Assembly (NCBI GenBank): GCA_963727925.1
Contig: CAVSIS010000051.1
Span: 147,522 to 211,521, forward strand
Origin: an uncultured Acidobacteriota bacterium
Lineage (GTDB): Bacteria; Acidobacteriota; Thermoanaerobaculia; Thermoanaerobaculales; Sulfomarinibacteraceae
Reading direction: 5' to 3'
DNA length: 64,000 bases
Shown: positions 7,303-43,936 of the stretch, in pieces
How positions within the stretch are numbered: position 1 is the first letter of the stretch
Layout: each line of letters starts with the position of its first letter
The notes under the pieces: generated by a model
Seen by the model: the letters and a program-made list of their open reading frames with translations, nothing else
The model's database searches: none
What the model was told of the DNA's origin: nothing
Made by a program: the position numbers and the translations under genes

Positions 7303-7447
7303 TTCTGCTCTCTCTCCTCGGGAGTGACTCCGGTGTTCTTTCGTTCTCGGGAAGCGACGAGTGCCGCAGCATCCGCTTCGTCACGCGGTCGCTGCGCTCC
7401 GGGTATTGTACCGTGAGTCCGCGGTTCGTCCGGAAGGGCGAGGAGGC

Positions 7448-10194: not shown

Positions 10195-10195
10195 G

Positions 10196-10741: not shown

Positions 10742-10766
10742 TCGTTCACTCCTCGTTGGTGGTCGG

Positions 10767-12311
10767 TCAGAAGAACCTCTTGCGCTTGTCCGATGACGGG
10801 ATCTGCAGCTCCTCTCTGTACTTGGCGACCGTGCGCCTGGCGAGTCGGATCCCTTCGCGCTGAAGCATTTTCATGATCTTCGAGTCGGACAACGGACGGG
10901 CCGGATCCTCGGCCTCGACGAGCTTCTTGATGCGTTCCTTCACGACTAGCGACGAGACGTTGTCGCCCTTGGCGGAGTCGACCCCCGAGTGGAAGAAGAA
11001 CTTCATTGGAAACAGACCGCGCGGTGTGTACATGTACTTGTTGCTGACGACGCGGGAAATGGTCGACTCGTGCATCCCGATGTCCTCGGCTACCTGACGG
11101 AGCACCATCGGTTTGAGGTGCTCGATGCCGTAGTCGAGGAATCCACGTTGGAAGCCAACGATACTGTGGGCGACCTTGTAAATCGTGCGTTGACGCTGAT
11201 CGATGCTCTTCATCAGCCACAGCGCGTTGCGCATCTTCTCTTTCAGATAGGACGTCACCTGGGGGTCGAGCGACGCGCCCTCCAGCATCCTGGCGTACCT
11301 GGAGTTGATCCGGAGCCTGGGGAGCCCGTCGTCGTTGAGGGCGATCAGGTACTCTCCGTCCGTCTTGCGGACGTAGACATCGGGCTCGATGTAGATGTTA
11401 CGCTCGCTCCGATAGTTCCGTCCCGGCTTGGGCTCGAGGCGGTGAATCACCTCGAGTATCGGCCTGAGCTCCTGCGGCTCGCAGTCGAGCACGCCCGCGA
11501 GCAACTCCCAACGTTGGTGCAGAAATGTGTCCCAGTGCTCCCCAACGACCATGCGAACGCGGCCGAGGAGATTGGCCTCGTCGCCGCCGGCGGTGGAGCA
11601 GAGAACCTCGACCTGCGCCAGGAGGCACTCCTGCAGGGTCCGAGCGGCGATGCCAGGCGGATCGAGGGAGCGGACGACGGCAAGCGCCCGCTCAACGTCG
11701 TCGGGCGAAGCACCACTTGCGCGCCGGATCTCCTCGTCGGACGCGCGAAGGTATCCGTCTTCGTCGAGGTTTCCGATCACGTACTCGGCGATGTCGACGA
11801 GGCGCGGCGGGCAGCTCATCAGATGCAGCTGCCAGACGAGGTGGTCGTAGAGCCCGGGCGATGCGGACAGCACGTTCTCCAGCGGGACGTTCTCGTCATC
11901 CAGGGACCGGGCCATCGAAGGCCCTTCCGGCCGGCTGTCACCGAGATAGTCCGAAAAGAAAGCCTCGACGTCGATATCGTCGTATGCTTCTTGGTCGCTC
12001 GGTAGGATCGGCTCATCCTCCGATCCAGGTTGTGCAAGGTCGCCCACCCCGTCCCACTCCTCCCCAGCCCCTGCGGGTGCGTCCGAGGCTTCGGCAGGTG
12101 CTTCCGTGGATGTGGCCTGTTCGGCTTCCTGGGCGGACGTCTCCTCGGCAGTTTCTTCCGCATCGAGCACGGGGTTCTCGAGGATCTCCTGCGATATTGC
12201 TTCCTCGAGCTCCAGCCGTGAAAGCTGAAGCAGCTTGATCGCTTGCTGCAGCGACGGTGTCATCACCAGCCGCTGCGCGAGCTTGAGGCGGAGCTTTTGT
12301 TCGAGCGCCAT
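10767..12311 (-). CDS. rpoN: RNA polymerase sigma-54 factor
   Basis: 514 aa. MALEQKLRLKLAQRLVMTPSLQQAIKLLQLSRLELEEAI is region I. An acidic region II follows. The C-terminal HTH and RpoN box read HESTISRVVSNKYMYTPRGLFPMKFFF. Confidence 0.95.
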   Translation of the reverse strand: MALEQKLRLKLAQRLVMTPSLQQAIKLLQLSRLELEEAISQEILENPVLDAEETAEETSAQEAEQATSTEAPAEASDAPAGAGEEWDGVGDLAQPGSEDEPILPSDQEAYDDIDVEAFFSDYLGDSRPEGPSMARSLDDENVPLENVLSASPGLYDHLVWQLHLMSCPPRLVDIAEYVIGNLDEDGYLRASDEEIRRASGASPDDVERALAVVRSLDPPGIAARTLQECLLAQVEVLCSTAGGDEANLLGRVRMVVGEHWDTFLHQRWELLAGVLDCEPQELRPILEVIHRLEPKPGRNYRSERNIYIEPDVYVRKTDGEYLIALNDDGLPRLRINSRYARMLEGASLDPQVTSYLKEKMRNALWLMKSIDQRQRTIYKVAHSIVGFQRGFLDYGIEHLKPMVLRQVAEDIGMHESTISRVVSNKYMYTPRGLFPMKFFFHSGVDSAKGDNVSSLVVKERIKKLVEAEDPARPLSDSKIMKMLQREGIRLARRTVAKYREELQIPSSDKRKRFF

Positions 12312-16910: not shown

Positions 16911-17573
16911 TCACCCCTTGCGTCGGAATCGGTCGAGCAACCCGCCGCCGGATTGGGCCCTTTCCTCGGTGTCAAGCTGCGCCAGGACCTCGAGGGCCTT
17001 GCTGTTGGTCGGATCCAGGCCAAGCGCCTCCTCGGCGAGGCGCCGCGCCCGATTGCTCATCTTTGCGGCCGCAGCCAAAGAGGCGCCCTCGGCGAGGATG
17101 GTCGGATTGTTGGGCTCGAGCTGGGCGGAGCGGTCCAGGTGGCGAAGCGCCTCCCGCTCGTGCCCTTTTGCTCGCGACAGCACGCCACCCAGAAAGTAGT
17201 GCGCACGGGCGTTCGACTCATCGTGGTCCACTGCTGATTCGAGCAGCTCGAGGGCCTCGTGGAGCTTCCCTTCGCGGATCGCCTGGGCCCCCTTGCCGGT
17301 CAGGCGGCGAGAGATCTCGCGCGGGTCCATCGCCTTCGATTTCCCACCGACGTAGATGTCGCGGTCGTAACGATCCCGCGCTTCAGGACGGCTGAGAACG
17401 TTGAATGCCTCGGTGATGGACTGGAAGCGCTCCTCGGCCTGCTGCCTTTCGGCGCCCATGAAGCGGTCGGGGTGATTCTCCAGCGCGAGCTTGCGGAACG
17501 CAGCTCGTATCTCCTGCTCACTGGCGTCAGAGCCGACGCCGAGAACGTCATAGTAGGTGGGTCGATAGCTCAT
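16911..17573 (-). CDS. J-domain (DnaJ-like) protein with TPR repeats
   Basis: MSYRPTYYDVLGVGSDASEQEIRAAFRKLALENHPDR is a J-domain containing HPD. The C-terminal half has TPR-like repeats (AHYFLGGVLSRAKGHEREALRHLDRSAQLEPNN). Confidence 0.8.
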   Translation of the reverse strand: MSYRPTYYDVLGVGSDASEQEIRAAFRKLALENHPDRFMGAERQQAEERFQSITEAFNVLSRPEARDRYDRDIYVGGKSKAMDPREISRRLTGKGAQAIREGKLHEALELLESAVDHDESNARAHYFLGGVLSRAKGHEREALRHLDRSAQLEPNNPTILAEGASLAAAAKMSNRARRLAEEALGLDPTNSKALEVLAQLDTEERAQSGGGLLDRFRRKG

Positions 17574-17672
17574 ATGCCGCTCGGGCGGAGAGCGCGCCGA
17601 ACCTTCATGCTTCTACGGGCATGTGTACCACAGCTGTCGCCGGTGCGCAACGCGGTCGGCGTTGTATCGTGC

Positions 17673-18578
17673 TCATTCAGAGACATCGTCGTTCCCACGC
17701 GCGGTTTCGGTCAGCTCGGATCGCAAGCGCTGCCGGAGACGCACGACCTCGAGCCCTGGCAGCCTGCGCTCCTCGGCGAGCAGGCCTCGCAACGACCACT
17801 TCCGGAGTGCCAGGCGCGTGAGCTGCCGCGCAAGAACCGCCCGCTCGTCACCGCTCTCTCGCCAATCTCCGCGAACCCGCGCCGCAAACCGTGGAATCGC
17901 TGTCGTCACCCAGCCCGGAAGGGTCCCGAGGCGGACCTCGTCGGCAAGCTCCCTGGCGAGAATACGGCCTTCCGCCAGCAAGACCGCCGTCAGCGTCAGG
18001 GCGACAACCGCCGCGGCCGACCCTACCGCGACCACAGCGCGCGGGCCATTGCCAAGGGCTGCCGCGACGCTCATATGAACAGCCGCCGTGCCGCCAGACC
18101 ACCCTGCCAGCGCCACGGCTACCCAGAGAACTCGTCGGACGACGCCCCGGTCGATCTTCGCCGTCGCGAGTGCCGCGCCTGCCGGCACGCTTCCGGCAAT
18201 CGGTGCGACGGCTGCCGCCAGTCCAGAGCCAGTCGCCGCAGCCAGCGCCGCCCAACCGAACCCTGTCGCCAGCCCGACAACGACACCATCGGCCGGTGCA
18301 TCGAGCTCGCGCGCTGTGAGAATTGCCGCCAGCACCACGGTCACCGCAACCAGCCCATCGAGCCCGACACCGACCACACCGGAGGTGGACAACCCCGCCT
18401 GCACGCCTGCAAGCTCGGAGGTGACTGCGCCGACCGCGCCCCAGGCGAAGGACAGGACGACCTTGAGGAACGGCCGTCCCACTCGACGGTCGTGCCACCA
18501 CAGCAGTCCAACGAGGGGCAGGGTCACCATGAGTGCGGCGACGGTCATTGCAGCGAGGTAGACGACGTTCAGCGCCAC
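17673..18578 (-). CDS. Polytopic membrane protein, PrsW-family-like (catalytic motifs look degenerate)
   Basis: 301 aa with multiple hydrophobic helices. LWWHDRRVGRPFLKVVLSFAWGAV resembles the PrsW N-terminal (Y/W)xxDRxExEP..FxWGA block. The EExxK-type motif is reduced to SE. This is a weak, motif-only call. Confidence 0.4.
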   Translation of the reverse strand: MALNVVYLAAMTVAALMVTLPLVGLLWWHDRRVGRPFLKVVLSFAWGAVGAVTSELAGVQAGLSTSGVVGVGLDGLVAVTVVLAAILTARELDAPADGVVVGLATGFGWAALAAATGSGLAAAVAPIAGSVPAGAALATAKIDRGVVRRVLWVAVALAGWSGGTAAVHMSVAAALGNGPRAVVAVGSAAAVVALTLTAVLLAEGRILARELADEVRLGTLPGWVTTAIPRFAARVRGDWRESGDERAVLARQLTRLALRKWSLRGLLAEERRLPGLEVVRLRQRLRSELTETARGNDDVSE

Positions 18579-19540
18579 GGCGTGGGCAGCTCCTGAAGGT
18601 CGACGGCCGCGGACTCGAACCAGCGGCCGGCCGCCTCGACGTCGCGCCGAATCTGCTCCATGAGCTCCTCAGATGTTGGGAATGCGCGCTCGGCCCGGAC
18701 CCTGGCGAAGAAGAAGAGACGCACTCGCTCGCCGTAGACGTTGCCCGCAAAGTCGAGCACGTGGCTTTCGATCGTCACCGTGTGCTGCGACGAAACGGTC
18801 GGTCGGATTCCGATGTTGGTGACCGATGGCAATACCTGCCGTTTGGACGGGATCCACACCGCGGTGACGTAGACTCCGCGGGATGGGAGGAGCTCATTGT
18901 CGAGCGCGAGATTGAGGGTCGGAAAGCCAAAGGTTCGGCCCAGCCTCCGGCCCTCGACCACGGTCCCATCGACGAAGAAGGGACGTCCCAACAGCGCGGC
19001 AGCCTCGGCGACGGTTCCTTTTTCGACCGCACTGCGGACGCGGGTCGACGACACCACCCCGCCCGCAACCTGCACGACCGGCGCGCCAGCGGCGACAAAA
19101 CCAAGTCGACGCCCCTCGCGCTCGAGCAGCTCCACGTCGCCCTTACGGTCGGCGCCGAACCGAAAGTTCGCTCCGATGTAAACCTCCCGCACCGCGAGGC
19201 GCTCCGTCAGGACCTCCGCGACGAAGGTCTCCGCTTCCATGCGAGCGAGCTCCCGCGTGAAGGGAACCACGAGCGCTACGTCGACGCCCTCCCGCGCCAC
19301 AAGCTCGAGGCGCTGATCGAGAGTGGTCAGGAGCGGTAGGGCGACATCCGGACGCAGCACCCGCACCGGGTGGGGATCGAACGTCATCAGCGCGGCGACC
19401 GTGTTCAGAGTGCGGGCCCGCTCTACGAGATGCTGGAGCACCGCCCGATGACCAAGGTGCACGCCGTCGAAGTTGCCGACGCTGAGCACGCTGCCCCGGG
19501 GTGGCCGGTCAGCGCCGAGGGGATCGTGCAGGATCTCCAC
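18569..19540 (-). CDS. ribF: Bifunctional riboflavin kinase / FMN adenylyltransferase
   Basis: 323 aa. The motifs are VLSVGNFDGVHLGHRAV, FDPHP and GFPTLNL, with a riboflavin kinase C-terminal domain. Confidence 0.9.
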   Translation of the reverse strand: MEILHDPLGADRPPRGSVLSVGNFDGVHLGHRAVLQHLVERARTLNTVAALMTFDPHPVRVLRPDVALPLLTTLDQRLELVAREGVDVALVVPFTRELARMEAETFVAEVLTERLAVREVYIGANFRFGADRKGDVELLEREGRRLGFVAAGAPVVQVAGGVVSSTRVRSAVEKGTVAEAAALLGRPFFVDGTVVEGRRLGRTFGFPTLNLALDNELLPSRGVYVTAVWIPSKRQVLPSVTNIGIRPTVSSQHTVTIESHVLDFAGNVYGERVRLFFFARVRAERAFPTSEELMEQIRRDVEAAGRWFESAAVDLQELPTPWR

Positions 19541-19551
19541 CCCCCCACCCC

Positions 19552-20967
19552 TCAGGCGAGCACTGGCAGACGAGTCCGAGAGTGAAGACGCGAAGGGAGT
19601 AGCTCGCGGGTCACGCGGCCGACGACGTCGTAGGGATGCGCCTCCGTCACTTCGACCTCGACCAGCGCCCCCGCCATCGCGGTTCCGTCGTTGATCAGCA
19701 GCCGGCCGTCGATCTGTGGTGCGTGGCGCGCCAGCCGGGCTGCCGTGAGAAGCTCCATCTCTTCCAGCGCGCCCTCTACCAGAGCCGGAAGGCGCCGGCC
19801 GACGAGCGCCTGGTTTCGGCGCCAGGATATCTCTTGTTGCGCCTCCATCAGACGCGCCCGCCGTTCCTCCTTGACCTCCTCGGGCACTGGATCGCCGAGC
19901 GCGGCGCCCGGGTTTTCCTCCTGCCAGGAATAGGAGAAGACGCCGACGTGATCGAGCTCGGCGCCAGCGACGAAGTCCAGCAGCTCGTCGAACTCCCGCT
20001 CACCTTCCCCAGGAAAACCAACGATGAACGTCGATCGCACGGCCAGGTCGGGCACGACCGCCCGAGCTCGTTCGATCATCGCCCGATAGGTGCGTGCATC
20101 CCCACCCCGGCGCATCGCCTTGAGTACCGACCGGCTGGCGTGCTGCAGCGGGATGTCCAGGTACGGCACGATCCGCGGTTGCGCCGCCATGAGTTCGAAA
20201 AGCCCATGGTCCAGGGTCGCCGGGTAGGCGTAGAGAAACCGGATCCAGGGAGCATCCGTGCCCGCGGCGATCGCTTCCAAGAGCACTCGGAGCCCGTGTA
20301 CGAGACCGAGGTCTTCTCCGTAGCGCGTAGTGTCCTGGGCGATCAGCACCAGCTCCTGGACGCCTTGCTCGACCAGGGCACGACCCTCGTTCACCAGATC
20401 GGCGACACGGCGCGAACGGAAGCTACCGCGCATCCGGGGAATGTGGCAGAAGGTGCAGGGATTGTCGCAGCCCTCAGCGACCTTGAGGAAAGCGTAGCCT
20501 CGGGTCGAAACGAGCCGCGGGTTCGAGTGGTCGTAGAGGCGCAGTGCACCACGCTGATCGGGCAGGTGCCGGTCGAGCTCACCTCGAACAGCCTCGACCA
20601 CTCTTTCGAGCTCGTCGAGGCCGACGAACGCGTCGATCTCAGGGACCTCTTTCTGCAGCTCTTCCGCATATGCCTGGGCCATGCACCCCGAGACCACCAG
20701 CCGGCGCACGCGGCCTGCCTTCTTGGCTTCGGCCACCTCGAGGATTGCCTCGATCGACTCCCGTTTGGCGTCAATGATGAAGCCGCAGGTGTTGACCACC
20801 ACCACGTCGGCCTCCGTCGGGTCCGCTGTGACGATTGCTCCGGCGCGTTCGAGGTGGCCAAGCATCACCTCGCCGTCGACGAGGTTCTTGGCACACCCGA
20901 GACCGATCATCCCCACACGGGGACCGTCCACCGATCGGTCCGTTTTCTGCAACGGATTCTCAGTCAT
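19552..20967 (-). CDS. rimO: Ribosomal protein S12 methylthiotransferase RimO (radical SAM)
   Basis: The motifs are VGMIGLGCAKNLVDGEVMLG, VVNTCGFIIDAKRES and the radical-SAM CDNPCTFCHIPRMRG, plus a TRAM C-terminus. I trimmed the start to ATG 20967, which has GGAGCGGGG upstream. Confidence 0.9.
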   Translation of the reverse strand: MTENPLQKTDRSVDGPRVGMIGLGCAKNLVDGEVMLGHLERAGAIVTADPTEADVVVVNTCGFIIDAKRESIEAILEVAEAKKAGRVRRLVVSGCMAQAYAEELQKEVPEIDAFVGLDELERVVEAVRGELDRHLPDQRGALRLYDHSNPRLVSTRGYAFLKVAEGCDNPCTFCHIPRMRGSFRSRRVADLVNEGRALVEQGVQELVLIAQDTTRYGEDLGLVHGLRVLLEAIAAGTDAPWIRFLYAYPATLDHGLFELMAAQPRIVPYLDIPLQHASRSVLKAMRRGGDARTYRAMIERARAVVPDLAVRSTFIVGFPGEGEREFDELLDFVAGAELDHVGVFSYSWQEENPGAALGDPVPEEVKEERRARLMEAQQEISWRRNQALVGRRLPALVEGALEEMELLTAARLARHAPQIDGRLLINDGTAMAGALVEVEVTEAHPYDVVGRVTRELLPSRLHSRTRLPVLA

Positions 20968-21042
20968 CCCCGCTCCAAGCTGCGGATTGTACCACCCGAA
21001 GAAAGCCACGGGCCGGCGACAAACTGTCCAGGAAAGTGCAGG

Positions 21043-22194
21043 CTAGCCGTTCGAGAGACGCGTCAGGAGGACCTCGGCAGCACGCCGCGAGGCGCCGGGA
21101 CCGCCGAGCCGTTGCCGCACTTCCGCTAGCCCGGCGCGCTGCGCGTCCCCGTCCGGGCCAGTCAGCGCTCTCACCGCTGCCGCCAGAGCCTTGCCGTTCC
21201 AGCCACTCTGAAGCAGCTCCGGTGCCAGTCGCCGCCCGGCGATGAGGTTCACCAGGCCCACGTGAGGAACCCGGACGAGTGCGCGCGCCAGAAGGTGGGA
21301 GAGCGGCTGCAGCCGGTAGCCCACGACCATCGGTACACCGAGGAGAGCACACTCGAGGGTTGCGGTCCCTGACGCCGTCAAGGCCGCACGACACCTGCCC
21401 AGCTCGGCGCGGCGGCGGACTCCGGTCGCGCGAATCAGTCGTGAATCACTGGCGAACCGCGCCTGGATCCGGTCGACCTCCGCGCCGATGCCCGGAGCCT
21501 CAACAAGAACGGCCCGCTTCACGGTGGACAACGGCAGTTCGGCCAGGGCATCGAGCATGGCCGGCAAGAGCTGCCGAACCTCCATGCGGCGGGAACCGGG
21601 CAGCAGGGCCAAGCAGCCGTCCTCGCCCGCGTCCCGAAAGGGATACAGACCTTCGCGAGCGAGATCGTCGACCAGCGGATGGCCGACGTAACGGGCGGGA
21701 ACCCCGGAGGCGGCGTAGAACTCGACCTCGAACGGGAGGATACAGAGGACCTCCCGCGCGACGCGGCGCACCACGCGAACCCTGCCCCTGCGCCACGCCC
21801 AGAGTTGGGGCGAGACGTACAGCACGACCGGAATCCCGAGGCCGCGCAGTCGTTCGGCGAGTCGGAGATTGAAATCGGGCGAGTCGACCAGCACCGCCAG
21901 AGCCGGCCGGCGGCGTGCCGCCTCGTCGACCAGGCGACGCATCACTCCCCGGATGCGTGGCAGCTCTCGCAGGACCTCGACCAGGCCCATGTGGGCGAGC
22001 TCGTCGGTGTGGGCAATCGGCTCGAGCCCTTCGGTCAGCAGTCTCTCGCCGCCGACTCCGAATGCGCGCAGCTCGGGGCGCAAACCGACGAGTTCGTGGA
22101 GGAGATTCCCGGCGTGGATGTCGCCGGACACCTCGCCGGCGACGATGAGCAGGCGGTCGGCGGCTGCGGTCACGGGACGGGGTACATCAACCAC
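21043..22194 (-). CDS. lpxB: Lipid-A-disaccharide synthase
   Basis: The motifs are LLIVAGEVSGDIHAGNLL, HMGLVEVL, DSPDFNLRLA and YVSPQLWAWR. The start is uncertain: GTG 22194, GTG 22173, or the ORF-track start at 22314. Confidence 0.88.
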   Translation of the reverse strand: MVDVPRPVTAAADRLLIVAGEVSGDIHAGNLLHELVGLRPELRAFGVGGERLLTEGLEPIAHTDELAHMGLVEVLRELPRIRGVMRRLVDEAARRRPALAVLVDSPDFNLRLAERLRGLGIPVVLYVSPQLWAWRRGRVRVVRRVAREVLCILPFEVEFYAASGVPARYVGHPLVDDLAREGLYPFRDAGEDGCLALLPGSRRMEVRQLLPAMLDALAELPLSTVKRAVLVEAPGIGAEVDRIQARFASDSRLIRATGVRRRAELGRCRAALTASGTATLECALLGVPMVVGYRLQPLSHLLARALVRVPHVGLVNLIAGRRLAPELLQSGWNGKALAAAVRALTGPDGDAQRAGLAEVRQRLGGPGASRRAAEVLLTRLSNG

Positions 22195-23221: not shown

Positions 23222-25357
23222 TCAGTTTTCCGACTTGCTGTCGTCCTCGCCGCCCTCTTCATCGCCGGGCTCCGGCTCGGGCGCCGCGTCCTCGTGCTCA
23301 GCGGCCTCGGCCTCCACTTCGACCTTCTCAGCTTCGGGCTCCTCGGCCTCGACTTCGGGCCCTGCAACCTGAGCCTCGAGCGTCGCGGCTTCAGCTTCTG
23401 GTTTTGCGACCTTGGCCTTGGGTTTCGAGGCCTTGGCCTTGGGCTTGGCGGCCTTTACTTCGGGCTCCGCGGCTTGAGCCTCGGGCTCCGCGGCTTGAGC
23501 CTCGGGCTCCGCGGCCTGGGCCTCGGGCTCCGCGGCCTGGGCCTCGGGCTCCGCGGCCTGGGCCTCGGGCTCCGCGGCCTGAGCCTCGGACTCCGCTGCC
23601 TCCGCCTCGAACTCGATGCTCTCAGTCTCTGCCGCCTGCTCAGCTTCCGGTTCCGGCAGCACACCGCCGGCTCGAAGAGCAGCCGCCATCGCTGTCTCGG
23701 GGAGGAACGCGGCGTGCTCCTCTCCCTCGACCGGCTCGTCGCCCACGTCACCATGCTCCTGATCAACCCCGTGCATCGACAAGCCGATCCGATTCTCGTT
23801 CCAGTCGATGCGCAGAATCCGGCAGCGCACTTTCTGACCGGACACGAAATGGTCCTGAAGTGACAGACCCGAGTCTCGGTCGATTTCGGAGATGTGGCAC
23901 AGGCCCTCGACACCAGGCGACAGCTCGACGAACACCCCGAAGTCAGTGACGTTGGTGACCGCTCCGCCGACTACGTCCCCGACCGAGTGGCGGTTCGCAT
24001 ACTCCTCCCACTCGTTCGGCAGGAGCTCCTTCATCGACAGCGAGATCCGCTGATTCACGACATCGACCGCGGAGATGACCGCATCGACCTCCTGGCCCTT
24101 CTGAACGACCTCCGACGGATGATTGATGCGTCGGGTCCAGGACATGTCGGAGATGTGCACGAGCCCGTCGACGCCGGGCACGATCTCCACGAAGGCCCCA
24201 AAGTCGGTCAAGTTGCGAACCACACCGTGGATTCGGCTGCCGACGCTGTACGTCTCAGCGACCTGCTCCCACGGGTTGGGCTCGGTGGCACGCAGTGAAA
24301 GCGACAGGCGGCGTTTGTCCGGGTCAACCTCGGAGACGACGACCTCGACCTCCTGTCCGACCTCCAGAATTGAACGCGGGTTCTTGATCTTCTTGGTCCA
24401 CGACATCTCGCTGACGTGGATCAACCCCTCGACGCCTTCTTCGAGGGCAACAAAGGCGCCGTAGTCGACGATGCTCACGACACTGCCGCTGACTCGCTTG
24501 CCGACCGGGTATTTCTCTGGAACCAGGATCCACGGATCCTCGAATCGCTGCTTGTAGCCGAGCGAAACCCGTTCCTTTTCGCGGTCGAACCGCAACACCA
24601 CCACGTCGACCTCGTCACCGACCCGGAAGTACTCGCTGGGATGTCCAACGCGCCCCCACGAGATATCGGTGATGTGGAGCAGGCCGTCGAGCCCGCCAAG
24701 GTCAACGAACACTCCGTAGTCGGTGATGTTCTTGACCGCACCGGTCACGACCTTGCCTTCTTCGAGATCGACCATCGTCGCTTCCTTGGCGCGCTGCTGC
24801 TCCTCTTCCAGGATCGCCTTGCGCGACAGCACGACGTTCGAGCGACGCCGGTCGAAGCTGATGATCCGGGCCTCGATTTCCGCGTTGAGATAGTCCTCGA
24901 GGCGGCGGTTCGGCCGAATATCAACCAGGCTACCGGGCAGGAAGGCGCGGACACCGATATCGACCGAAAGCCCGCCCTTGACTCGTTCGACGACCCGACC
25001 GGTGACTGGCTCGCCGCTCTTGAAGGCGTCCTCTATGGACCTCCAGGTCTTCAGCTTGGTCGCGCGCTCGCGCGACAACCGCAAGGTTCCCTCAAGCTCG
25101 TCGAGCCGCTCGACGAACACCTCGACCTCGTCGTCGAGGCCGATCATGACCTCGCCTGTCTTGCGATCGGTGAACTCCGCGATCGGAATCGAGCCTTCGC
25201 ACTTGAAGCCGATATCGACCATGACCTCGTCGTTTGTGACCGCGACTACTGTCCCGCGAACCACTTCACCTTCACGGAGGGCTTGGAGGGAGGACTCCAT
25301 CAGCTGCTCCATCGACAGCTGATCCATGCTCTCTGGGTTCTCCCGGTTACCGTTCAT
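23222..25357 (-). CDS. rpsA: 30S ribosomal protein S1 with long acidic repeat tail
   Basis: Six S1-domain repeats are present (e.g. GxVVxGxVxxVTDFGAFVEL). The start is ATG 25357 or ATG 25327 (MDQLSMEQLMESSLQ); the track start at 25462 would overlap cmk. The C-terminal ~175 aa is an AEPEAQA/KPKAK low-complexity tail. Confidence 0.9.
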   Translation of the reverse strand: MNGNRENPESMDQLSMEQLMESSLQALREGEVVRGTVVAVTNDEVMVDIGFKCEGSIPIAEFTDRKTGEVMIGLDDEVEVFVERLDELEGTLRLSRERATKLKTWRSIEDAFKSGEPVTGRVVERVKGGLSVDIGVRAFLPGSLVDIRPNRRLEDYLNAEIEARIISFDRRRSNVVLSRKAILEEEQQRAKEATMVDLEEGKVVTGAVKNITDYGVFVDLGGLDGLLHITDISWGRVGHPSEYFRVGDEVDVVVLRFDREKERVSLGYKQRFEDPWILVPEKYPVGKRVSGSVVSIVDYGAFVALEEGVEGLIHVSEMSWTKKIKNPRSILEVGQEVEVVVSEVDPDKRRLSLSLRATEPNPWEQVAETYSVGSRIHGVVRNLTDFGAFVEIVPGVDGLVHISDMSWTRRINHPSEVVQKGQEVDAVISAVDVVNQRISLSMKELLPNEWEEYANRHSVGDVVGGAVTNVTDFGVFVELSPGVEGLCHISEIDRDSGLSLQDHFVSGQKVRCRILRIDWNENRIGLSMHGVDQEHGDVGDEPVEGEEHAAFLPETAMAAALRAGGVLPEPEAEQAAETESIEFEAEAAESEAQAAEPEAQAAEPEAQAAEPEAQAAEPEAQAAEPEAQAAEPEVKAAKPKAKASKPKAKVAKPEAEAATLEAQVAGPEVEAEEPEAEKVEVEAEAAEHEDAAPEPEPGDEEGGEDDSKSEN
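23461..23607. repeat. 21-bp in-frame tandem repeat (6 near-perfect copies plus 1 degenerate) inside the rpsA tail
   Basis: The unit cgggctccgcggc(c/t)tg(a/g)gcct repeats head-to-tail from 23461. On the minus strand it encodes (AQAAEPE)n. Confidence 0.9.
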
Positions 25358-26327: not shown

Positions 26328-27386
26328 TCACGAGTCCGGGCCGTGCACCTCGACTGGAATGACGACCTCGGGACGGGCGGGCTCGTCCGTCGCGACGCGT
26401 ACCGTTGCCGAGACTCCCGACGACGGCACCTTGGACATGTCGGAGGCTACGAGCGCAATACGAATGAGGTGGGAAACCTGGGATCCCGAGCTGACCTGGG
26501 TCGCCCCGACCAGCTCCGGCACCGAGGAGAGCATGCCCGTGATGCGAAACGGTTTGCCTCCGTTGTGGCCGAGTCTGACGACCATCGAGTGGGGCTGGCG
26601 TGGATCGCTTCCGGTGCTCAGGTCCACCGTCTTCGGCGCCGCCGAGATCAAGGGACGGATACGGACCTGCACCGGGACCTGGATGAGCGGGCGCTCCGGG
26701 TGGTTGGTCGCCAGCTTGACGACTCCGTCGAACTCGCTGGCGGTCACCTCAGGCGCGACGTGGAGGCGCACCCACACGTCGCCAGGCGCGACGTTGGAAA
26801 GGCCCTCCGGCCGGTCGCCTTCGCCGACGCGACCCGACGTGATCTGGAGCAGCGTCGGCGCTGGGTTGTCGATCCGGGTGAGCTCGAGCGGCGTATCGGC
26901 GTCTCCTGTCAGTCGCAACCAGCGATCGATTTGCCGCCCCTCGACGCCGGCGACGATGACGCGGCCATTGGGCCGGACAACCACCGGGGCCGACACCTGA
27001 TACGAGAAGGACAGCCGGAGGTCCTCGCTTCCGGGTTCATCGGTGTGAACCGTCACGCCTTTCGAAAAGCGCCCGTTTTGGTTGGCTCCGGTGTGGACTC
27101 TCGCAACGAGCTTTCCCGACCCACCTGCCGGGATCACCGAGTCGACCTCGGCGATGGTGCAGCCTCAAGAAGGGTGGGCAGCCAGAATCCGGATCTCCCG
27201 CGAGGTCGGGTTGCTGAGTGTGAAGGTCGCGACCGCATCGTTGCCGGCACGGACCTTCCCGACGTCGACTCCCATCGACTCGACAGTGAGCCTCGACTTC
27301 ACCGATCCCCAGGTCGGATCCCCAGAGAACGCGGTGCCTGCAGCCGCAAGAGCGAGCAGCGCGGTGACAGCAACGGCACGATGCAT
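26328..27386 (-). CDS. Secreted DUF1573-family protein interrupted by one in-frame TGA (27165..27167): candidate selenoprotein, alternatively a pseudogene or assembly error
   Basis: ATG 27386 has GGGGGA 6 nt upstream. MHRAVAVTALLALAAAGTAFS is a signal peptide. The DUF1573 core reads VDVGKVRAGNDAVATFTLSNPTSREIRILAAHPS-TGA-GCTIAEVDSVIPAGGSGKLVARVHTGANQNGRFSKGVTVHTDEP. The frame continues into track ORF 26328..27137. Confidence 0.6.
27133..27155 (-). other. SECIS-like hairpin 9 nt downstream of the in-frame TGA
   Basis: In minus sense it reads AUCGCCGAG-GUCGA-CUCGGUGAU: a 9-bp stem with one G.U pair and a 5-nt loop that begins GU about 20 nt after the UGA. Confidence 0.35.
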
Positions 27387-27475
27387 GGTCGATCCCCCAT
27401 TCCTCCCGACCGAACGGGAGGCGCGACGAGTCATTCTACTCTCGACCTCATCGTGCGTTGAGAGTCCCCTGACCT

Positions 27476-28219
27476 TCACAGGGCGCGTTCGCCCAGGACG
27501 GCTCCTCCGACTCCGATCACGACGGCTCGAATAGGGAGCTTCCGCGAGGCGCGTCCGGCGGCCGCCTGGGCGAGTCGGATCAGGCCGCTGCAACACGGGA
27601 CCTCCATCACGGCCACCGTGAGGCTCGCGATCCCCGACTGGTCGATCATCGCGGTCAGCTTCTCGACGTAGATCTCTTGATGGCTGTCCAGCTTGGGACA
27701 CGCGACCGCGAGCGACCGTCCACTGAGAAGGCGGCGGTGAAAATCGGGATGGGCGAAGGCCACACAGTCGGCGGCCAGGAGCACATCGGCCCCGTGAAAG
27801 GCGGGCGCCAGCGGCGAGACAAGGTGAAGCTGTACTGGCCAGTGACCCAGCTGGGACGCTGTCGTGTGTCCGTCCGGAGCGGAGGTGTGCGCGGGGGCCA
27901 CGACCGGAAGCGAAAGTGGTCGGCTTCCGGGGCAGCTGCTCCCGCCCTCTGCCACGATTGTCGGGCGTGCCTCGCCTAAACCTCTGAGATGGAGGGCCAC
28001 GGCCGCCTCGTCGTACGGCGCAGCTTCGCGGCGCACGACCGTGATCGCACCTTGCGGGCAGTGGCCGAGACACGCGCCGAGGCCGTCGCAGTACACGTCG
28101 CTCACGAGCTTCGCCTTGCCGCCGATGATTCGCAGCGCGCCCTCGGCGCACGATATGACGCACTCCCCGCAGCCGTCACACAGCGACTCGTCGATCTCGA
28201 TGACGTCCCGAAACGGCAC
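27476..28219 (-). CDS. 4Fe-4S dicluster-domain protein with uncharacterised Cys-containing C-terminal domain
   Basis: The N-terminus carries CDGCGECVISC...CDGLGACLGHCP (two ferredoxin-type cluster motifs). The C-terminal part has ADCVAFA, ACPKLD and VPCCSG. The GTG start has AAGGAAGG 6 nt upstream, 2 nt after the cupin stop. Confidence 0.7.
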   Translation of the reverse strand: MPFRDVIEIDESLCDGCGECVISCAEGALRIIGGKAKLVSDVYCDGLGACLGHCPQGAITVVRREAAPYDEAAVALHLRGLGEARPTIVAEGGSSCPGSRPLSLPVVAPAHTSAPDGHTTASQLGHWPVQLHLVSPLAPAFHGADVLLAADCVAFAHPDFHRRLLSGRSLAVACPKLDSHQEIYVEKLTAMIDQSGIASLTVAVMEVPCCSGLIRLAQAAAGRASRKLPIRAVVIGVGGAVLGERAL

Positions 28220-28221
28220 GT

Positions 28222-28587
28222 TCAGCCTTCCTTGCCACTGTCGCGCAGCATGACCAGGAGCACTTTGCTGGACTTCACCGCCGTCAGCGCGTGCGGCACG
28301 TTGGCGGGCATCAGGACGACATGGCCTGGACCTGCGGGAACAGCCTTACCGCCAATCGTCAGCTCGAGGCCTCCGTCGATGACCTGGACGAGTGCGTCAA
28401 ACGGCGCCGTATGTTCGCTCAGGCGCTGGCCTTCTGCAAAGGCGAACAAAGTGACGGACCCACCTCCGGACCGCACCAGCGTCCGGCTCACGATCGCGGC
28501 CGGAGCAACCGAAGCGAGGTCCGCCAACGAGTAGGCCGTCGCCGGCCGGAACTCCTCGGAACGATCTGAGCGGCGAGCTTCTGACAT
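28222..28587 (-). CDS. Cupin-domain protein
   Basis: 121 aa. LFAFAEGQRLSEHTAPFDALVQVIDGGLELTIGGKAVPAGPGHVVLMPANVPHAL is the two-motif cupin barrel pattern. GAGGAGG SD lies upstream. Confidence 0.75.
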   Translation of the reverse strand: MSEARRSDRSEEFRPATAYSLADLASVAPAAIVSRTLVRSGGGSVTLFAFAEGQRLSEHTAPFDALVQVIDGGLELTIGGKAVPAGPGHVVLMPANVPHALTAVKSSKVLLVMLRDSGKEG

Positions 28588-28648
28588 GGAGCCTCCTCAT
28601 CTTCCCTCCGAGTGTGCTCTCGACATCGGCGAACCGCCTTGACCCAGG

Positions 28649-29920
28649 TCAATCGCCCCGCGGGAAAACCGCCGAGCCCGGGAGCACGGCCACGGCCTCG
28701 CGCGGGAAACGCTCCCGCCAGCTCTCGATGAGGTCGGCGGGGTCGCGAGCTGGATGGAAACCCAGACGCCGAGCCAGATCGGGATCGAGGTCCGAGCACA
28801 GGTGGACCGCAAAGCGGCGGGTCTTGTCAAGGATGCGCAGGGTGGTATGCCCGTACTGAACCCACGTCTGGGAGAGTCGCGCGCGGATCACGTCCGGACG
28901 CGGATCCTCGACGAACGACGCCATGTCGTCCGAACCGAGGCCTCGGTCCATCGCCGCCACGAAAAGGACTTCCGCTCCGGGCTCGGCGAAACGACATGCC
29001 GCGTCGAGGGCCTTGTGAGCCTGGATGAGCGTGGCGTCCGAAGGCGCGCCCCCTCCTGACGCAACCACCAGGCGGTGGGTCCCGCACGTGACCTCGAACC
29101 ACTCCCGCACCTGCTCCACAGCGGCCGCGAAGGCCGCCCTCCAGGTCCCCGCAGCGGCCCAGGCCGGCCTGCCATCGACTCCGGGCACCAGGCACAAGGC
29201 GAGCATCGGCGGCGCGAGGTCCGCCACGCGGGCGATCTCCTCCGCCACCGGGTTGCCAGTCAGCCGTCCAGGCGCACAGCGCATGTCGATATCGGCCGGA
29301 GCACCCGTTGCGGTCCGCGTCATGACCCGAGAGTGGTTGTGCTGGATCTCCGCGTAACCCCCAGTGCCGGGAAAGACCATCTTCGGGCCGCCACCGAAAC
29401 CGGCGAAGTAGTGGTGCCGGACAGTCCCCACCGTCACGATCGCGCCGGCCTCGACGACGGCACGAGCGATCCGCACCGGGACCCCTGCCTCCAACTCGCC
29501 CACCGCGACCAGGCTGGTGTCGTCGCGGGCATCGTGCTGCCGAACGGTCACTCCCTCAGGCAGGGCTCCCACCAGCGCGGCGACCTCGGACTCGGAGACG
29601 GCGGGGTGGGTGCCGCAGGCGACGACGATGGTGGTCGCTCGAGGACCGACCCCGGCCGCCTGAAGTCGCGCGAGGACAACCGGCAGGACCTCCGGGAGCG
29701 ACGCGGATCGCGTGGCGTCCGGCACCACGACCGCCACCGAGGCCGCACCACGGACCCGGGCTTCAAGCGGCGGGCCGTCCAGCGGCTGATCGAGCGCAGA
29801 CGAGACCAGTCTCGCGACGTCGCCTGCACCCGCTGGCGCCGCGGGCTTCAGGTGACGCACCGTGAGACCGCGCAGATCGACCGGCATGTCGCTGCGACCG
29901 CTCGCCAGCTTGACGATCAT
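28649..29920 (-). CDS. LarA-like (lactate racemase N-terminal domain, DUF2088) protein
   Basis: 423 aa. The motifs are VVVPDATR, IVVACGTHP and VRHHYFAGFGGGPKMVFPG, which contains the GGxK lysine that tethers the nickel-pincer cofactor in LarA. The ATG start forms an ATGA overlap with the rhomboid stop. Confidence 0.8.
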   Translation of the reverse strand: MIVKLASGRSDMPVDLRGLTVRHLKPAAPAGAGDVARLVSSALDQPLDGPPLEARVRGAASVAVVVPDATRSASLPEVLPVVLARLQAAGVGPRATTIVVACGTHPAVSESEVAALVGALPEGVTVRQHDARDDTSLVAVGELEAGVPVRIARAVVEAGAIVTVGTVRHHYFAGFGGGPKMVFPGTGGYAEIQHNHSRVMTRTATGAPADIDMRCAPGRLTGNPVAEEIARVADLAPPMLALCLVPGVDGRPAWAAAGTWRAAFAAAVEQVREWFEVTCGTHRLVVASGGGAPSDATLIQAHKALDAACRFAEPGAEVLFVAAMDRGLGSDDMASFVEDPRPDVIRARLSQTWVQYGHTTLRILDKTRRFAVHLCSDLDPDLARRLGFHPARDPADLIESWRERFPREAVAVLPGSAVFPRGD

Positions 29921-41757: not shown

Positions 41758-42291
41758 GTGACCATGCGCCAACCCGACGGAAGCTCCACCCTGCTCACGA
41801 CACGAGTCGACGCGATGCTGGCTTGGGTGCGGAAGAACAGCCTGTGGCCGCTCCCGTTCGGCACCGCGTGCTGCGCGATCGAGTTCATGTCGTCGGTCTC
41901 GTCCCACTACGACCTGGCTCGATTCGGAGCGGAGGTGGTGAGGTTTTCGCCCCGTCAGTCCGACATGATGATCGTTGCCGGCACCATTACCGACAAGATG
42001 GCGCCGATCGTGAAGCGGATCTACGACCAGATGGCCGAGCCCAAGTACGTCATCTCGATGGGTGCGTGCGCCTGCACCGGGGGCTTCTACCGCGCCTATC
42101 ACGTGGTCCAGGGAGTGGATGAGTTCATTCCCGTGGATGTCTACGTCCCGGGATGCCCGCCGACCCCGGAGGCCCTGATCCACGGCATTCTGAAACTCCA
42201 GGAGATGATCCAGGGCGGGGAGACCCAATATGACCGTCTCAAGTCCTCGAAAGACAACGTCACACCCGCTGTCCAAGCTGCTGCCGAGTGA
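41758..42291 (+). CDS. nuoB: NADH-quinone oxidoreductase subunit B
   Basis: The motifs are [39 protein letters not shown] and [13 protein letters not shown] (N2 cluster ligands). The start is GTG 41758 or ATG 41764. Confidence 0.92.
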
Positions 42292-43936
42292 GGTCAAGGC
42301 GACTGTCGAGCAGGGTACCGACGACCACACCGTCATCACGGTCGACCGGGGACAGCTGCTCGACGTGTTGAAGACCCTGAAGGAGCACCGCGACCTTCGG
42401 TGCGATCTTCTGGTCGATGTCTGCGGGGTCGACTACCCGGACCGAGACAGTCGGTTCGAGGTCGTGTATCACCTTGCCAGCCTCGAAAACGGGAAGAGAT
42501 TCCGCGTGAAGGTCCCACTCGACGAGGCCGACCCGGTGGTTCCCTCCGCGTACGGGCTTTTCAAGGCGGCGGACTGGTTCGAACGCGAAGCCTGGGACAT
42601 GTTTGGAATCCGCTTCGACGGCCATCCCAACCTCAAGCGGATCCTCACCCACGAGGCCTTCCGAGGACATCCATTGCGCAAGGACTACGATCCGGGACAA
42701 CGGTGGCTGCTCACCGAGGTCGAGGAGATGGTTCCGGAGTGGGCACGCGAGAGCAGCCAGGGAGACGACCACTTCGAGACCCAGGTCCTCAACCTCGGCC
42801 CGTCGCACCCCGCCACCCACGGCACGCTGCGCACCGTGGTCCGGCTCGACGGCGAGGTCATCACCAATGCGGAGTGTGAGATCGGCTACCTCCATCGCTG
42901 CTTCGAGAAGATGGCCGAGACCCACGAGTGGAACCAGGTGGTGCCCTACACCGACCGCCTCAACTACTGCTCGAGCATGATCAACGGCGTGGGCTACACG
43001 ACCGCGGTCGAGCGCATGCTCGGTATCGAAGCGCCCGCGCGCGCTCAGGTGGTCCAGGTCATCCTGTCCGAGCTGTCGAGGATCATGGACCATTGCGTCT
43101 GCCTCGGTGCGAACCTGGTCGATCTCGGTGCGCTGACCAACTTCTGGTATTTCTTCCAGCCGCGGGAGGAGATCTACGGTCTGCTGGAGGCCTGTGCGGG
43201 CGGGCGTCTCACCGTCTCTTACGTGCGCGTCGGCGGGCTTGCGCACGACGTTCCGGCGGACTTCGAAGAGCGCGTTCGCTATCTCCTTCGCTACATCCCC
43301 AAGTTCATCGACGACGTGGAGCGTCTCGTCACCTCGAACACCATCTTCCGTGACCGTACTGAGGGCATCGGGGCGATCACGGCGGAGGAAGCCGTCGCCT
43401 GGGGCTGGACGGGACCATGCCTGCGCGCGTCGGGCGTCCCTTACGACGTTCGCAAGGCCTATCCCTATCGAGGCTACGACCAGTACGAGTTCGACGTTCC
43501 CGTAGCATCGGGGGGTGACACCTACGCGCGCTACCTGGTGCGAATGGAGGAGATGCGCCAGAGCCTGCGAATCATCGAGCAGGCGATCAACAACCTTCCG
43601 GACGGTCCGACCCTGACCGACGACCACCACGTCGCTCTGCCTCCGAAGCAGAAGGTCTTCACCGAGATGGAGTCGTTGATCTGGCACTTCAAGCTGATCT
43701 ACGAGGGCATCAAGGTGCCTGCCGGCGACGCCTACTCGCTGTGCGAGGGCGCGAACGGCGAGCTCGGCTACTACATCGTTTCCGACGGCAGCGGCAGACC
43801 GTACCGCATCAAGGTGCGTCCTCCCTGCTTCGCGATCTTCCAGGCCTACCCCCACATGCTGATCGGGCACATGGTTCCCGACTCGATCGCGATACTGGGC
43901 AGCCTCAACATCATCGCGGGAGAGCTCGACCGATGA
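42230..43936 (+). CDS. nuoCD: NADH-quinone oxidoreductase fused subunit C/D
   Basis: 568 aa. The N-terminal 30-kDa (NuoC) part reads [29 protein letters not shown]. The 49-kDa (NuoD) part reads [37 protein letters not shown] and ends in GELDR. The ATG 42230 start overlaps the end of nuoB by 62 nt and is not certain. Confidence 0.9.

What the first reader, a model, noticed from the sequence alone, without database searches (positions are those of the whole stretch)
27133..27386. In-frame TGA exactly at the first Cys of the DUF1573 'SCGCT' motif, followed by an fdhF-like SECIS hairpin: candidate new selenoprotein
Two ORF-track pieces form one minus-strand reading frame interrupted only by TGA at 27167..27165. 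The pieces are the last ~74 codons of the otherwise spurious ORF 27165..28163 and ORF 26328..27137. Read-through gives a signal peptide (MHRAVAVTALLALAAAGTAFS) and then VDVGKVRAGNDAVATFTLSNPTSREIRILAAHPS-[TGA]-GCTIAEVDSVIPAGGSGKLVARVHTGANQNGRFSKGVTVHTDEP. This is the DUF1573 core (FG.v..G....F.l.N.G...L.I....SCGCT....i.PG..g.i.v), with the stop codon where the first invariant Cys belongs. Nine nt after the TGA a hairpin begins: 5'-AUCGCCGAG-GUCGA-CUCGGUGAU-3' (27155..27133). It has a 9-bp stem with one G.U pair. Its apical loop opens with GU about 20 nt 3' of the UGA, which is essentially the geometry of the E. coli fdhF bacterial SECIS. A stop at a conserved Cys plus a SECIS-like hairpin is the classical signature of a Sec/Cys pair. 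As far as I know, a secreted DUF1573 protein with a U-G-C motif is not a described selenoprotein family. The null hypothesis is a single-base TGC/TGT to TGA error or a young pseudogene.
Basis: partly seen in the sequence, partly recalled or inferred. Interest (0 to 1): 0.8.

Follow-up and report, generated by a model that had tools for sequence, protein, structure and literature searches.

The report
Real selenoprotein gene, known DUF1573 family
The in-frame TGA almost certainly encodes selenocysteine in an exported three-domain protein, but selenocysteine forms of this protein family (DUF1573 / OS_HP2) were described in 2007-2008, so this is a mis-annotated new member, not a new family.

Summary
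One minus-strand frame, 27386..26328 (352 codons), is broken only by TGA at 27167..27165. The stop sits at the first Cys of the DUF1573 C-G-C motif, and the described hairpin follows at 27155..27133.

It is neither a sequencing error nor a pseudogene. All 91 related loci (71 distinct sequences, down to about 33% identity) carry TGA at this codon. Both halves are under purifying selection. Synonymous sites freeze for codons +5 to +18 after the UGA. A full-length Cys orthologue in the same gene neighbourhood has TGT and lacks the conserved RNA structure.

The frozen RNA forms two adjacent hairpins. The "fdhF-like GU loop" occurs only in the window's own clade.

The novelty claim is wrong. OS_HP2 (pfam07610, UxC) was published as a selenoprotein family in 2007/2008 and has an NCBIfam model, NF041425.

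The window protein is a divergent, longer subfamily from Thermoanaerobaculia-type Acidobacteriota. It scores 58 bits against a cut-off of 100. Gene callers split or truncate it in public data.

No Sec machinery lies in the window, and the rest of the genome could not be read. Biochemical function is unknown.

The parts
26328..27386 (-). Complete selenoprotein gene: 352 codons including Sec74, ending in its own TGA terminator (26330..26328)
   Evidence: Translation. Syntenic relatives L001 and L002 read identically through the TGA. dN/dS is about 0.15-0.23 on both sides of the UGA.
27324..27386 (-). Predicted signal peptide MHRAVAVTALLALAAAGTAFS. This rests on inspection only; no signal-peptide predictor was available.
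   Evidence: Basic n-region, hydrophobic core and small residues before GD are read. Equivalent N-termini occur in L003 and L006. Residues 1-21 of the orthologue model are disordered.
27012..27287 (-). DUF1573 / OS_HP2-type Ig-like domain (residues 34-125) carrying the U74-G-C76 motif
   Evidence: PF07610 at 50.4 bits (cut-off 26.1) and PF22544 at 25.8 bits. NF041425 at 58.2 bits, below its cut-off of 100.
27165..27167 (-). UGA codon 74, read as selenocysteine
   Evidence: TGA in 91/91 loci. It aligns to Cys in P0065, P0100, P0053, P0086, P0089 and others. TGA is the normal terminator of 35/48 window genes, including this one.
27133..27155 (-).
   Evidence: -13.9 kcal/mol. Predicted by RNAalifold. 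Pair 15-33 is GC in 34 and CG in 8 sequences. Pair 20-28 is AU in 57 and GC in 3, at the cost of E->G and S->P.
27114..27133 (-). Hairpin 2: nt +35..+54, UCCCGGC-AGGUGG-GUCGGGA, 7 bp, loop starting 38 nt after the UGA
   Evidence: -10.9 kcal/mol. 98.6% of cells paired and the stem nearly invariant in 60 sequences. Third codon positions have 0-0.4 bits. Degraded to 5/7 pairs in the Cys forms.
27111..27152 (-). Zone of frozen synonymous sites (codons +5 to +18 after the UGA), the inferred SECIS element
   Evidence: Third-position entropy is about 0 here, against 1.4-1.9 bits at invariant residues elsewhere. dS is 0 and 0.09 here, against 0.55-0.74 in the rest of the gene. The covariance model scores 87.5 bits here, 46 and 30 bits on Cys forms, and nothing else in the window.
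26346..26999 (-). Two further beta-sandwich (Ig-like) domains, residues about 130-347
   Evidence: AlphaFold2 model of the Cys orthologue P0065 (35% identical over its full length): pLDDT 91.1, pTM 0.81, all-beta in three blocks. Foldseek finds only tandem Ig/ASH/cadherin-like folds.
27476..29920 (-). Conserved co-directional upstream neighbours: LarA_N-like (28649..29920), cupin (28222..28587) and 4Fe-4S/AF_0155 protein (27476..28219). This is context, not shown to be functionally linked.
   Evidence: Pfam hits. The Fer4 gene is upstream in 65/90 loci, the cupin in 34 and LarA_N in 23. The Cys orthologue has the same cluster.

Best explanation
What it is: a genuine selenoprotein gene. It is one 352-codon gene for an exported protein made of a signal peptide and three Ig-like beta-sandwich domains. 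The first domain is a DUF1573/OS_HP2-type domain in which the first Cys of the conserved C-G-C turn is selenocysteine (U74-G-C76).

How it is decoded (inferred): the UGA is read by Sec-tRNA(Sec) delivered by SelB. SelB is recruited by an mRNA structure inside the coding sequence, directly downstream at nt +13 to +54. That structure is two adjacent hairpins.
- Hairpin 2 has the loop AGGUGG. It is nearly invariant and has a G in one of the first two loop positions, as in the published bacterial SECIS consensus. I think it is the more likely SelB contact, with hairpin 1 acting as a spacer or lower helix.

What it does (inferred, weakest step): after export the U-G-C turn probably forms a selenylsulfide. 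It would then act as a redox-active or soft-metal-binding site.

Shown: the decoded status of the UGA, by comparative evidence; the RNA-level constraint; and the Sec/Cys orthologue pair.

Inferred: SelB dependence, which hairpin binds SelB, export, and the chemistry of the site.
For: 1. TGA is at the same codon in 91/91 loci, 71 distinct sequences at 33-100% identity. They were retrieved through a downstream peptide pattern that does not include the codon.
2. Protein-level purifying selection acts on both sides of the UGA. dN/dS is 0.124/0.549 and 0.083/0.547 upstream, and 0.152/0.735 and 0.128/0.571 downstream. Invariant residues there have free third positions.
3. Synonymous sites are frozen only at codons +5..+18.
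4. Two hairpins are predicted independently by RNAalifold. In the given structure 97.2% of cells pair, against 24-54% when the partners are slid. Two pairs show compensatory changes.
5. A full-length Cys orthologue, P0065 (KPSCGCTVADYDRVIPAGG), lies in the same LarA_N-cupin-Fer4-[gene]-cmk-rpsA neighbourhood.
6. Five Cys forms use TGT/TGC and lack the conserved hairpins. The covariance model gives 87.5 bits for the window against 46 and 30 for two Cys forms.
7. In an exhaustive HMMER search, 63 of the 80 representative hits begin 4-11 residues after the UGA position. Gene callers truncate them at the same place.
8. TGA is the ordinary terminator in this window, 35/48 genes, so the genetic code is not reassigned.
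9. The family is an accepted selenoprotein family (PMC1976440, PMC2398784; NF041425). Acidobacteriota include Sec users (PMC12013277, PMC13582414).
Against: - No selA, selB, selD or tRNA-Sec was found in the 64-kb window (35 of about 55 genes scanned) or in 23 fetched loci. The rest of the genome could not be read.
- There is no experimental evidence. All sequences come from metagenomes or MAGs.
- Covariation is limited because the element is so conserved (2 of 15 pairs).
- Across the family neither hairpin meets every constraint of the published bSECIS model. Hairpin 1 mostly lacks a G in the first two loop positions. The hairpin 2 loop starts 38 nt from the UGA, and the model allows 16-37.
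- In the divergent 47%-GC relative L096 the two-hairpin register is weak, -9.9 against an MFE of -19.0 for a different fold.
- The redox/metal function rests only on the motif and its position in a turn.
Confidence: 0.88

Rival explanations
1. The UGA is decoded, but not as selenocysteine. It could be read as Cys through a SelB-like or tRNA(UCA) recoding system, or as Trp/Gly/Cys by near-cognate read-through stimulated by the downstream structure.
For: No Sec machinery was seen in the window or the fetched loci. The comparative data prove decoding and an RNA signal, not the identity of the inserted residue. From my own memory, not checked here: SelB-dependent UGA-to-Cys recoding tRNAs have been proposed from metagenomic data.
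Against: The codon sits exactly at a Cys/Sec position of a family already catalogued as a selenoprotein (PMC2398784; NF041425). The hairpins lie immediately after the UGA as in bacterial SECIS elements (PMC13188914). Acidobacteriota are documented Sec users. A Cys-inserting system would give no advantage over a plain TGC codon, which close relatives do use.
Confidence: 0.05
2. The TGA is a true stop. The locus would make a 73-residue secreted peptide and a separate 269-residue protein restarted at the GTG at 27137.
For: Automatic gene callers annotate it this way in every database entry.
Against: The split would cut a single beta-sandwich domain in the middle of its conserved C-G-C turn. The Cys orthologue is one continuous protein. 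The 'restart' codons differ in position and type between relatives (VAE.., MAE.., LAE.., MIPAGG, VIPAGG). The C-terminal piece would lack a signal peptide. Frozen synonymous sites right after the stop would be unexplained.
Confidence: 0.03
3. The TGA is a sequencing or assembly error (TGC/TGT read as TGA), or the gene is a young pseudogene.
For: None beyond the bare presence of a stop codon in one sequence.
Against: TGA occurs in 91/91 independent loci from many samples and assemblers. Purifying selection acts on both halves. There are no other stops or frameshifts.
Confidence: 0.01

Closest known systems
OS_HP2 / DUF1573 selenoprotein family (pfam07610, motif UxC/UGC; NCBIfam NF041425). First reported from Olavius algarvensis symbionts (Zhang & Gladyshev 2007, PMC1976440) and the GOS data (2008, PMC2398784).
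   Same: The same domain, with PF07610 above its cut-off. NF041425 is the best NCBIfam hit and aligns over 90 of its 98 positions. Sec sits at the first position of the U-G-C motif, there are many Cys homologues, and a stem-loop follows the UGA directly.
   Different: The window scores 58.2 bits against the curated cut-off of 100 for NF041425. The protein is 352 residues, with two extra Ig-like domains after the DUF1573 domain. It comes from Thermoanaerobaculia-type Acidobacteriota rather than deltaproteobacterial symbionts. It has a conserved LarA_N-cupin-Fer4 neighbourhood. In this subfamily the Sec form predominates: 63 of the 80 representative hits are N-truncated.
Escherichia coli fdhF SECIS and the bacterial SECIS consensus (bSECISearch model, summarised in PMC13188914)
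   Same: The structure lies inside the coding sequence directly 3' of the UGA. In the window, hairpin 1 meets all four model constraints: a 5-nt loop on an 8-9 bp stem, G then U opening the loop, 18-nt spacing, and -13.9 kcal/mol.
   Different: Hairpin 1 has no bulged U in its stem. Its GU loop start is not conserved in relatives. The constrained RNA is two adjacent hairpins. The invariant one (loop AGGUGG) starts 38 nt from the UGA, just outside the model's 16-37 nt. No Rfam family matches.
Cys-containing DUF1573 proteins (S/T-C-G-C-T motif), for example P0065, P0100, P0053, P0086 and P0089
   Same: The same three-domain architecture. P0065 has the same gene neighbourhood and is 35% identical over its full length.
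   Different: They have TGT/TGC in place of TGA, no conserved hairpins, and free synonymous sites in the IPAGG codons.

Membership tests
Pfam PF07610 (DUF1573) | HMM score at or above the gathering threshold of 26.1 bits | tested here: met
   50.4 bits, E 2.4e-13, residues 34-125 on profile positions 2-92 of 98, with Cys substituted for the stop.
Pfam PF07610 (DUF1573) | Conserved C-G-C motif, with the UGA at the first Cys | tested here: met
   BLASTP aligns the X at position 74 to Cys in KPSCGCT (P0065) and IPACGCT (P0100). Nine further homologues carry CGC[TSLM] at that place.
NCBIfam NF041425, OS_HP2 family (seleno)protein | Score at or above the curated cut-off of 100 bits | tested here: not met
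   58.2 bits for the window, 63.2 for L003, 68.4 for the Cys orthologue P0065 and 79.5 for the small Sec form L090. It is the best hit in each case and aligns over nearly the whole profile. The window protein is therefore a related subfamily, not a member by NCBI's rule.
Bacterial selenoprotein gene (comparative criteria summarised in PMC13188914) | In-frame UGA conserved in homologues from other organisms | tested here: met
   91/91 loci, 71 distinct sequences. Also in the divergent lineages L090 and L096.
Bacterial selenoprotein gene (comparative criteria summarised in PMC13188914) | Cys-containing homologues with Cys aligned to the UGA | tested here: met
   including a syntenic orthologue.
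Bacterial selenoprotein gene (comparative criteria summarised in PMC13188914) | SECIS fitting the bSECIS model: loop 3-9 nt, stem 4-16 bp, G in the first two loop positions, 16-37 nt from the UGA, MFE at or below -7.5 kcal/mol | tested here: inconclusive
   In the window, hairpin 1 meets all four constraints. [quoted passage not shown] Hairpin 2 meets the loop, stem, G and energy constraints (-10.9 kcal/mol), but its loop starts 38 nt from the UGA.
Bacterial selenoprotein gene (comparative criteria summarised in PMC13188914) | selA, selB, selC (tRNA-Sec) and selD present in the same genome | not testable with these tools
   None were found in the 64-kb window or in 23 loci.
Bacterial selenoprotein gene (comparative criteria summarised in PMC13188914) | Selenium shown in the protein (75Se labelling or mass spectrometry) | not testable with these tools
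   This needs an experiment.
E. coli fdhF-type SECIS | Bulged U in the upper stem and a GU pair of bases in the apical loop at a fixed distance from the UGA (from established knowledge of the E. coli element) | tested here: not met
   Hairpin 1 is a perfect 9-bp stem with no bulge. Its GU is confined to the window's clade. The resemblance is one of geometry only.

The most novel reading that the evidence does not exclude
This Acidobacteriota clade may use a bipartite SECIS. A covarying proximal hairpin is followed by an almost invariant distal hairpin whose G-rich loop (AGGUGG in the main clade, a GGU triloop in L090) lies 38-42 nt from the UGA. That is outside the published bacterial consensus and would point to a distinct mode of SelB recognition. 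The protein would also define a widespread exported three-Ig-domain selenoprotein subfamily in sediment bacteria that is predominantly Sec-containing and is uniformly mis-annotated as two genes or a truncated one. It might work together with the conserved LarA-like/cupin/Fer4 neighbours.
Probability: 0.2. Interest if true: 0.45.

Novelty: new member of a known kind. Interest (0 to 1): 0.3.

Why it matters
Annotation value:
- Every public copy of this gene seen here is split or truncated at the UGA. This covers 23 of 23 word-index hits and 63 of the 80 exhaustive-search hits.
- Genome pipelines are therefore missing a fairly common exported selenoprotein of sediment and soil Acidobacteriota.
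- The family gives a clean training and benchmark case for selenoprotein finders. It offers 71 distinct Sec sequences, a syntenic Cys orthologue as a control, and sharply bounded synonymous constraint.

Biology:
- The function of DUF1573 remains unknown.
- The two-hairpin element with its invariant distal loop is a modest but testable lead on how SelB recognises SECIS elements outside the model organisms.
- The finding does not open a new class of biology.

Tried and rejected
- Rfam at gathering threshold on the whole window, and at E <= 10 on 27050..27250, gave no SECIS or other relevant family.
- ARAGORN found no tRNA-Sec in the window or in 23 loci.
- Pfam scans of 35 window genes found no SelA, SelB or SelD.
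- A GC3-based scan for other in-frame TGAs in the window gave three hits that look like non-coding frames. It also missed the true case, so it was dropped.
- A covariance model of the element found no second copy in the window or the large loci.
- A word-index search with the N-terminal domain returned only 73-residue fragments.
I therefore searched with the 60 residues after the UGA and modelled the Cys orthologue instead.
- A PDB sequence search gave nothing meaningful. Foldseek against PDB gave only generic tandem Ig/ASH/cadherin folds, so it gave no functional lead.
- Exact-sequence look-ups of the window's own two fragments did not find the source record, so the assembly accession of the window is unknown.
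- The Haft selenoprotein papers (PMC12013261, PMC9879109) are not held.
- No paper links Thermoanaerobaculia with selenocysteine.
- I considered a reassigned genetic code and rejected it, because TGA terminates 35 of 48 genes.

Full report
**1. The observation**

The minus-strand frame from ATG 27386 to the terminator at 26330..26328 is 352 codons. It contains one internal stop, TGA at 27167..27165.

The long upstream part of ORF 27165..28163 overlaps the real 4Fe-4S gene (27476..28219) in another frame and is spurious. With Cys in place of the stop, the protein matches Pfam DUF1573 (PF07610) at 50.4 bits against a cut-off of 26.1, over residues 34-125.

The hairpin AUCGCCGAG-GUCGA-CUCGGUGAU lies at 27155..27133. 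It starts 9 nt after the UGA and folds at -13.9 kcal/mol. None of 200 shuffles folds as well.

**2. The TGA is conserved and decoded**

A search of 5.8 billion proteins gave 23 homologues. All are N-terminally truncated and begin a few residues after the position of the TGA.

I fetched the DNA of several of them. In each, a 73-76-codon ORF and the called gene form one frame joined by TGA, reading ..PS-TGA-GCT... This holds even at about 35% identity.

A metagenome scan was seeded with the downstream peptide IPAGGSG[KT]L. That pattern does not include the codon in question, and it returned 80 more loci. Together with the window, 91 of 91 loci carry TGA at this codon. They comprise 71 distinct sequences.

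Between the window and its two closest relatives, dN/dS shows purifying selection on both sides:

| Region | vs L001 (dN/dS) | vs L002 (dN/dS) |
|---|---|---|
| Upstream of the UGA (codons 1-73) | 0.124/0.549 | 0.083/0.547 |
| Downstream of the UGA (codons 75-352) | 0.152/0.735 | 0.128/0.571 |

Both halves are therefore kept as protein. TGA is also the ordinary terminator of 35 of 48 genes in the window, including this gene itself. The genetic code is not reassigned. A sequencing error or a pseudogene is excluded.

**3. The Sec/Cys pair**

I ran an exhaustive HMMER search of 1.84 billion representatives with the 60 residues after the UGA. It gave 80 hits.
- 63 begin at their own residue 1-5. 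These are truncated in the same way as the Sec forms checked at the DNA level.
- 11 of the 12 full-length hits I fetched carry C-G-C at the aligned place.

P0065 (358 aa, KPSCGCTVADYDRVIPAGG) is 35% identical to the window protein over its whole length, and its Cys aligns to the UGA. It lies in the same neighbourhood: AMMECR1, LarA_N-like, cupin, Fer4/AF_0155, the gene itself, cmk, rpsA. It is a Cys orthologue.

**4. The RNA signal**

In the codon-aligned set, third-position entropy falls to about 0 bits for codons +5 to +18 after the UGA (nt +16 to +57; window 27152..27111). Invariant residues elsewhere keep 1.4-1.9 bits at the third position. dS in this stretch is 0 and 0.09, against 0.55-0.74 in the rest of the gene.

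The retrieval pattern was degenerate. Other codons for the same residues were recovered (GCC, GGC, AGT, CCT), so the freeze is not a search artefact. Half of the frozen stretch also lies outside the pattern.

The stretch folds into two adjacent hairpins, which RNAalifold predicts on its own.

- Pair 15-33 is G-C in 34 sequences and C-G in 8.
- Pair 20-28 is A-U in 57 and G-C in 3. The G-C form costs two amino-acid changes, E to G and S to P.

*Hairpin 2* is UCCCGGC-AGGUGG-GUCGGGA at 27133..27114.
- It folds at -10.9 kcal/mol.
- It is almost invariant.

In the given structure 97.2% of cells pair, against 24-54% when the 3' partners are slid by 1-3 columns.

Five Cys forms use TGT or TGC. They have different synonymous codons in the same IPAGG motif and do not keep the hairpins. 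A covariance model built from the Sec forms scores 87.5 bits on the window and 46 and 30 bits on two Cys forms. It scores nothing else in the window.

**5. Which hairpin is the SECIS?**

The published bacterial model asks for four things (PMC13188914):
- a 3-9 nt loop on a 4-16 bp stem;
- a G in the first two loop positions;
- 16-37 nt between the UGA and the loop;
- an MFE of -7.5 kcal/mol or lower.

In the window, hairpin 1 meets all four. Its GU comes from a Val codon confined to the window's clade, though. Most relatives have UACGA, UUCGA or CAUGA in that loop.

Hairpin 2 has G at the second loop position followed by GU in every member. Its loop starts 38 nt from the UGA, one nucleotide outside the model's range.

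Two divergent Sec forms bear on the question.
- The small form L090 uses different codons. It again shows a proximal hairpin followed by a distal hairpin with a GGU triloop.
- In the 47%-GC relative L096 the two-hairpin register is weak, -9.9 against an MFE of -19.0 kcal/mol. A single long hairpin with its apex at nt 39-42 is preferred.

My reading is that the distal loop is the more likely SelB contact, and that hairpin 1 serves as a spacer or lower helix. This is inference. No Rfam family matches.

**6. The protein**

The N-terminus looks like a signal peptide by inspection, and the same is true in relatives.

The model has pLDDT 91.1 and pTM 0.81 and shows three beta-sandwich domains. The C-G-C sits in the turn between strands 62-69 and 74-78.

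Foldseek finds only generic tandem Ig/ASH/cadherin-like folds. A PDB sequence search finds nothing.

The function of DUF1573 is not known. Only four held papers mention the family, two of them the selenoprotein reviews. A selenylsulfide-forming redox site or a soft-metal site in the periplasm is my best guess. It rests only on the motif, so I mark it as inference.

**7. Gene context**

The gene is preceded by the Fer4/AF_0155 gene in 65 of 90 loci, by the cupin in 34 and by LarA_N-like in 23. Many of the remaining loci are too short to tell.

A convergent radical SAM gene follows in 41 loci, though not in the window's clade. One lineage (L006-8) has a c-type cytochrome upstream instead.

This may be an operon, or it may be inherited gene order. 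I did not resolve which.

**8. Sec machinery**

No tRNA-Sec and no selA, selB or selD are present in the window or in 23 loci.

The closest relatives are MAGs of Thermoanaerobaculia/Acidobacteriota. That phylum has documented Sec users.

**9. Comparison with what is known**

- Zhang & Gladyshev reported OS_HP2 as a new selenoprotein family in the Olavius symbionts in 2007 (PMC1976440).
- In 2008 they listed it as 'OS_HP2, pfam07610, UxC, 2 Sec sequences, 354 Cys homologues' in the GOS data (PMC2398784).
- NCBIfam holds NF041425, 'OS_HP2 family (seleno)protein'.

The window protein hits NF041425 best, but at 58.2 bits against a cut-off of 100. Relatives score 63-80 bits.

It is therefore a divergent, longer, three-domain subfamily of a known selenoprotein kind. 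It is not a new family, and it is not a member of NF041425 by NCBI's own rule.

**10. Verdict**

| Question | Answer |
|---|---|
| Observation | Confirmed |
| Interpretation | Partly supported: it is a true selenoprotein gene with a real hairpin, but it is not novel and the SECIS picture was incomplete |
| Novelty | New member of a known kind |
| Interest | About 0.3 |
| Main value | Annotation repair, and a clean comparative data set for bacterial SECIS elements |

Noticed in passing
window 27476..29920 (- strand), with L001-L089: A co-directional cluster of LarA_N-like, cupin and 4Fe-4S/AF_0155 genes sits directly upstream of the selenoprotein gene in most relatives (Fer4 in 65/90 loci). A convergent Radical_SAM_N2 radical SAM gene lies downstream in 41 loci but is absent from the window's clade. 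The Cys orthologue has the same cluster.
   Followed up: partly
L090:1378-1782 and L096:1611-2786: Two other Sec-form DUF1573 lineages were found. One is a 126-residue single-domain protein (RAG-UGA-GCT) with its own pair of hairpins and a GGU triloop. The other is a 47%-GC lineage (GCA_016927835.1, RPT-UGA-GCTVAKFDSVIPPGQTG) whose best fold is one long hairpin rather than the family's two.
   Followed up: partly
window 23222..23700 (- strand), 3' end of rpsA: The ribosomal protein S1 gene ends in a long acidic tandem repeat, roughly (AEPEAQA)n followed by a KPKAK-rich stretch. It is visible in the translation.
   Followed up: no
window 27165..28163 (- strand): Only the last 74 codons of this 332-codon ORF are real. 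The rest is a high-GC shadow frame across the Fer4 gene (27476..28219).
   Followed up: yes
P0024 (176 aa, 977-nt JGI contig): A database protein named 'histidinol dehydrogenase' begins with 60 residues of this selenoprotein's post-UGA region and then switches to HisD-like sequence. It is probably a chimeric assembly.
   Followed up: no
window 17259..18596 and 19636..21129 (+ strand): Two long + strand ORFs (445 and 497 aa) sit in a region where all neighbours are on the - strand, and they have no Pfam hit. They may be shadow ORFs. The syntenic part of L001 shows differently placed genes.
   Followed up: no
window 5273..12311 (- strand) and 42230..43936 (+ strand): An rpoN (sigma-54), HPr kinase, RapZ and PtsI gene block, and a fused NuoC/NuoD gene (30-kDa plus 49-kDa domains in one ORF). 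These are ordinary housekeeping features.
   Followed up: no
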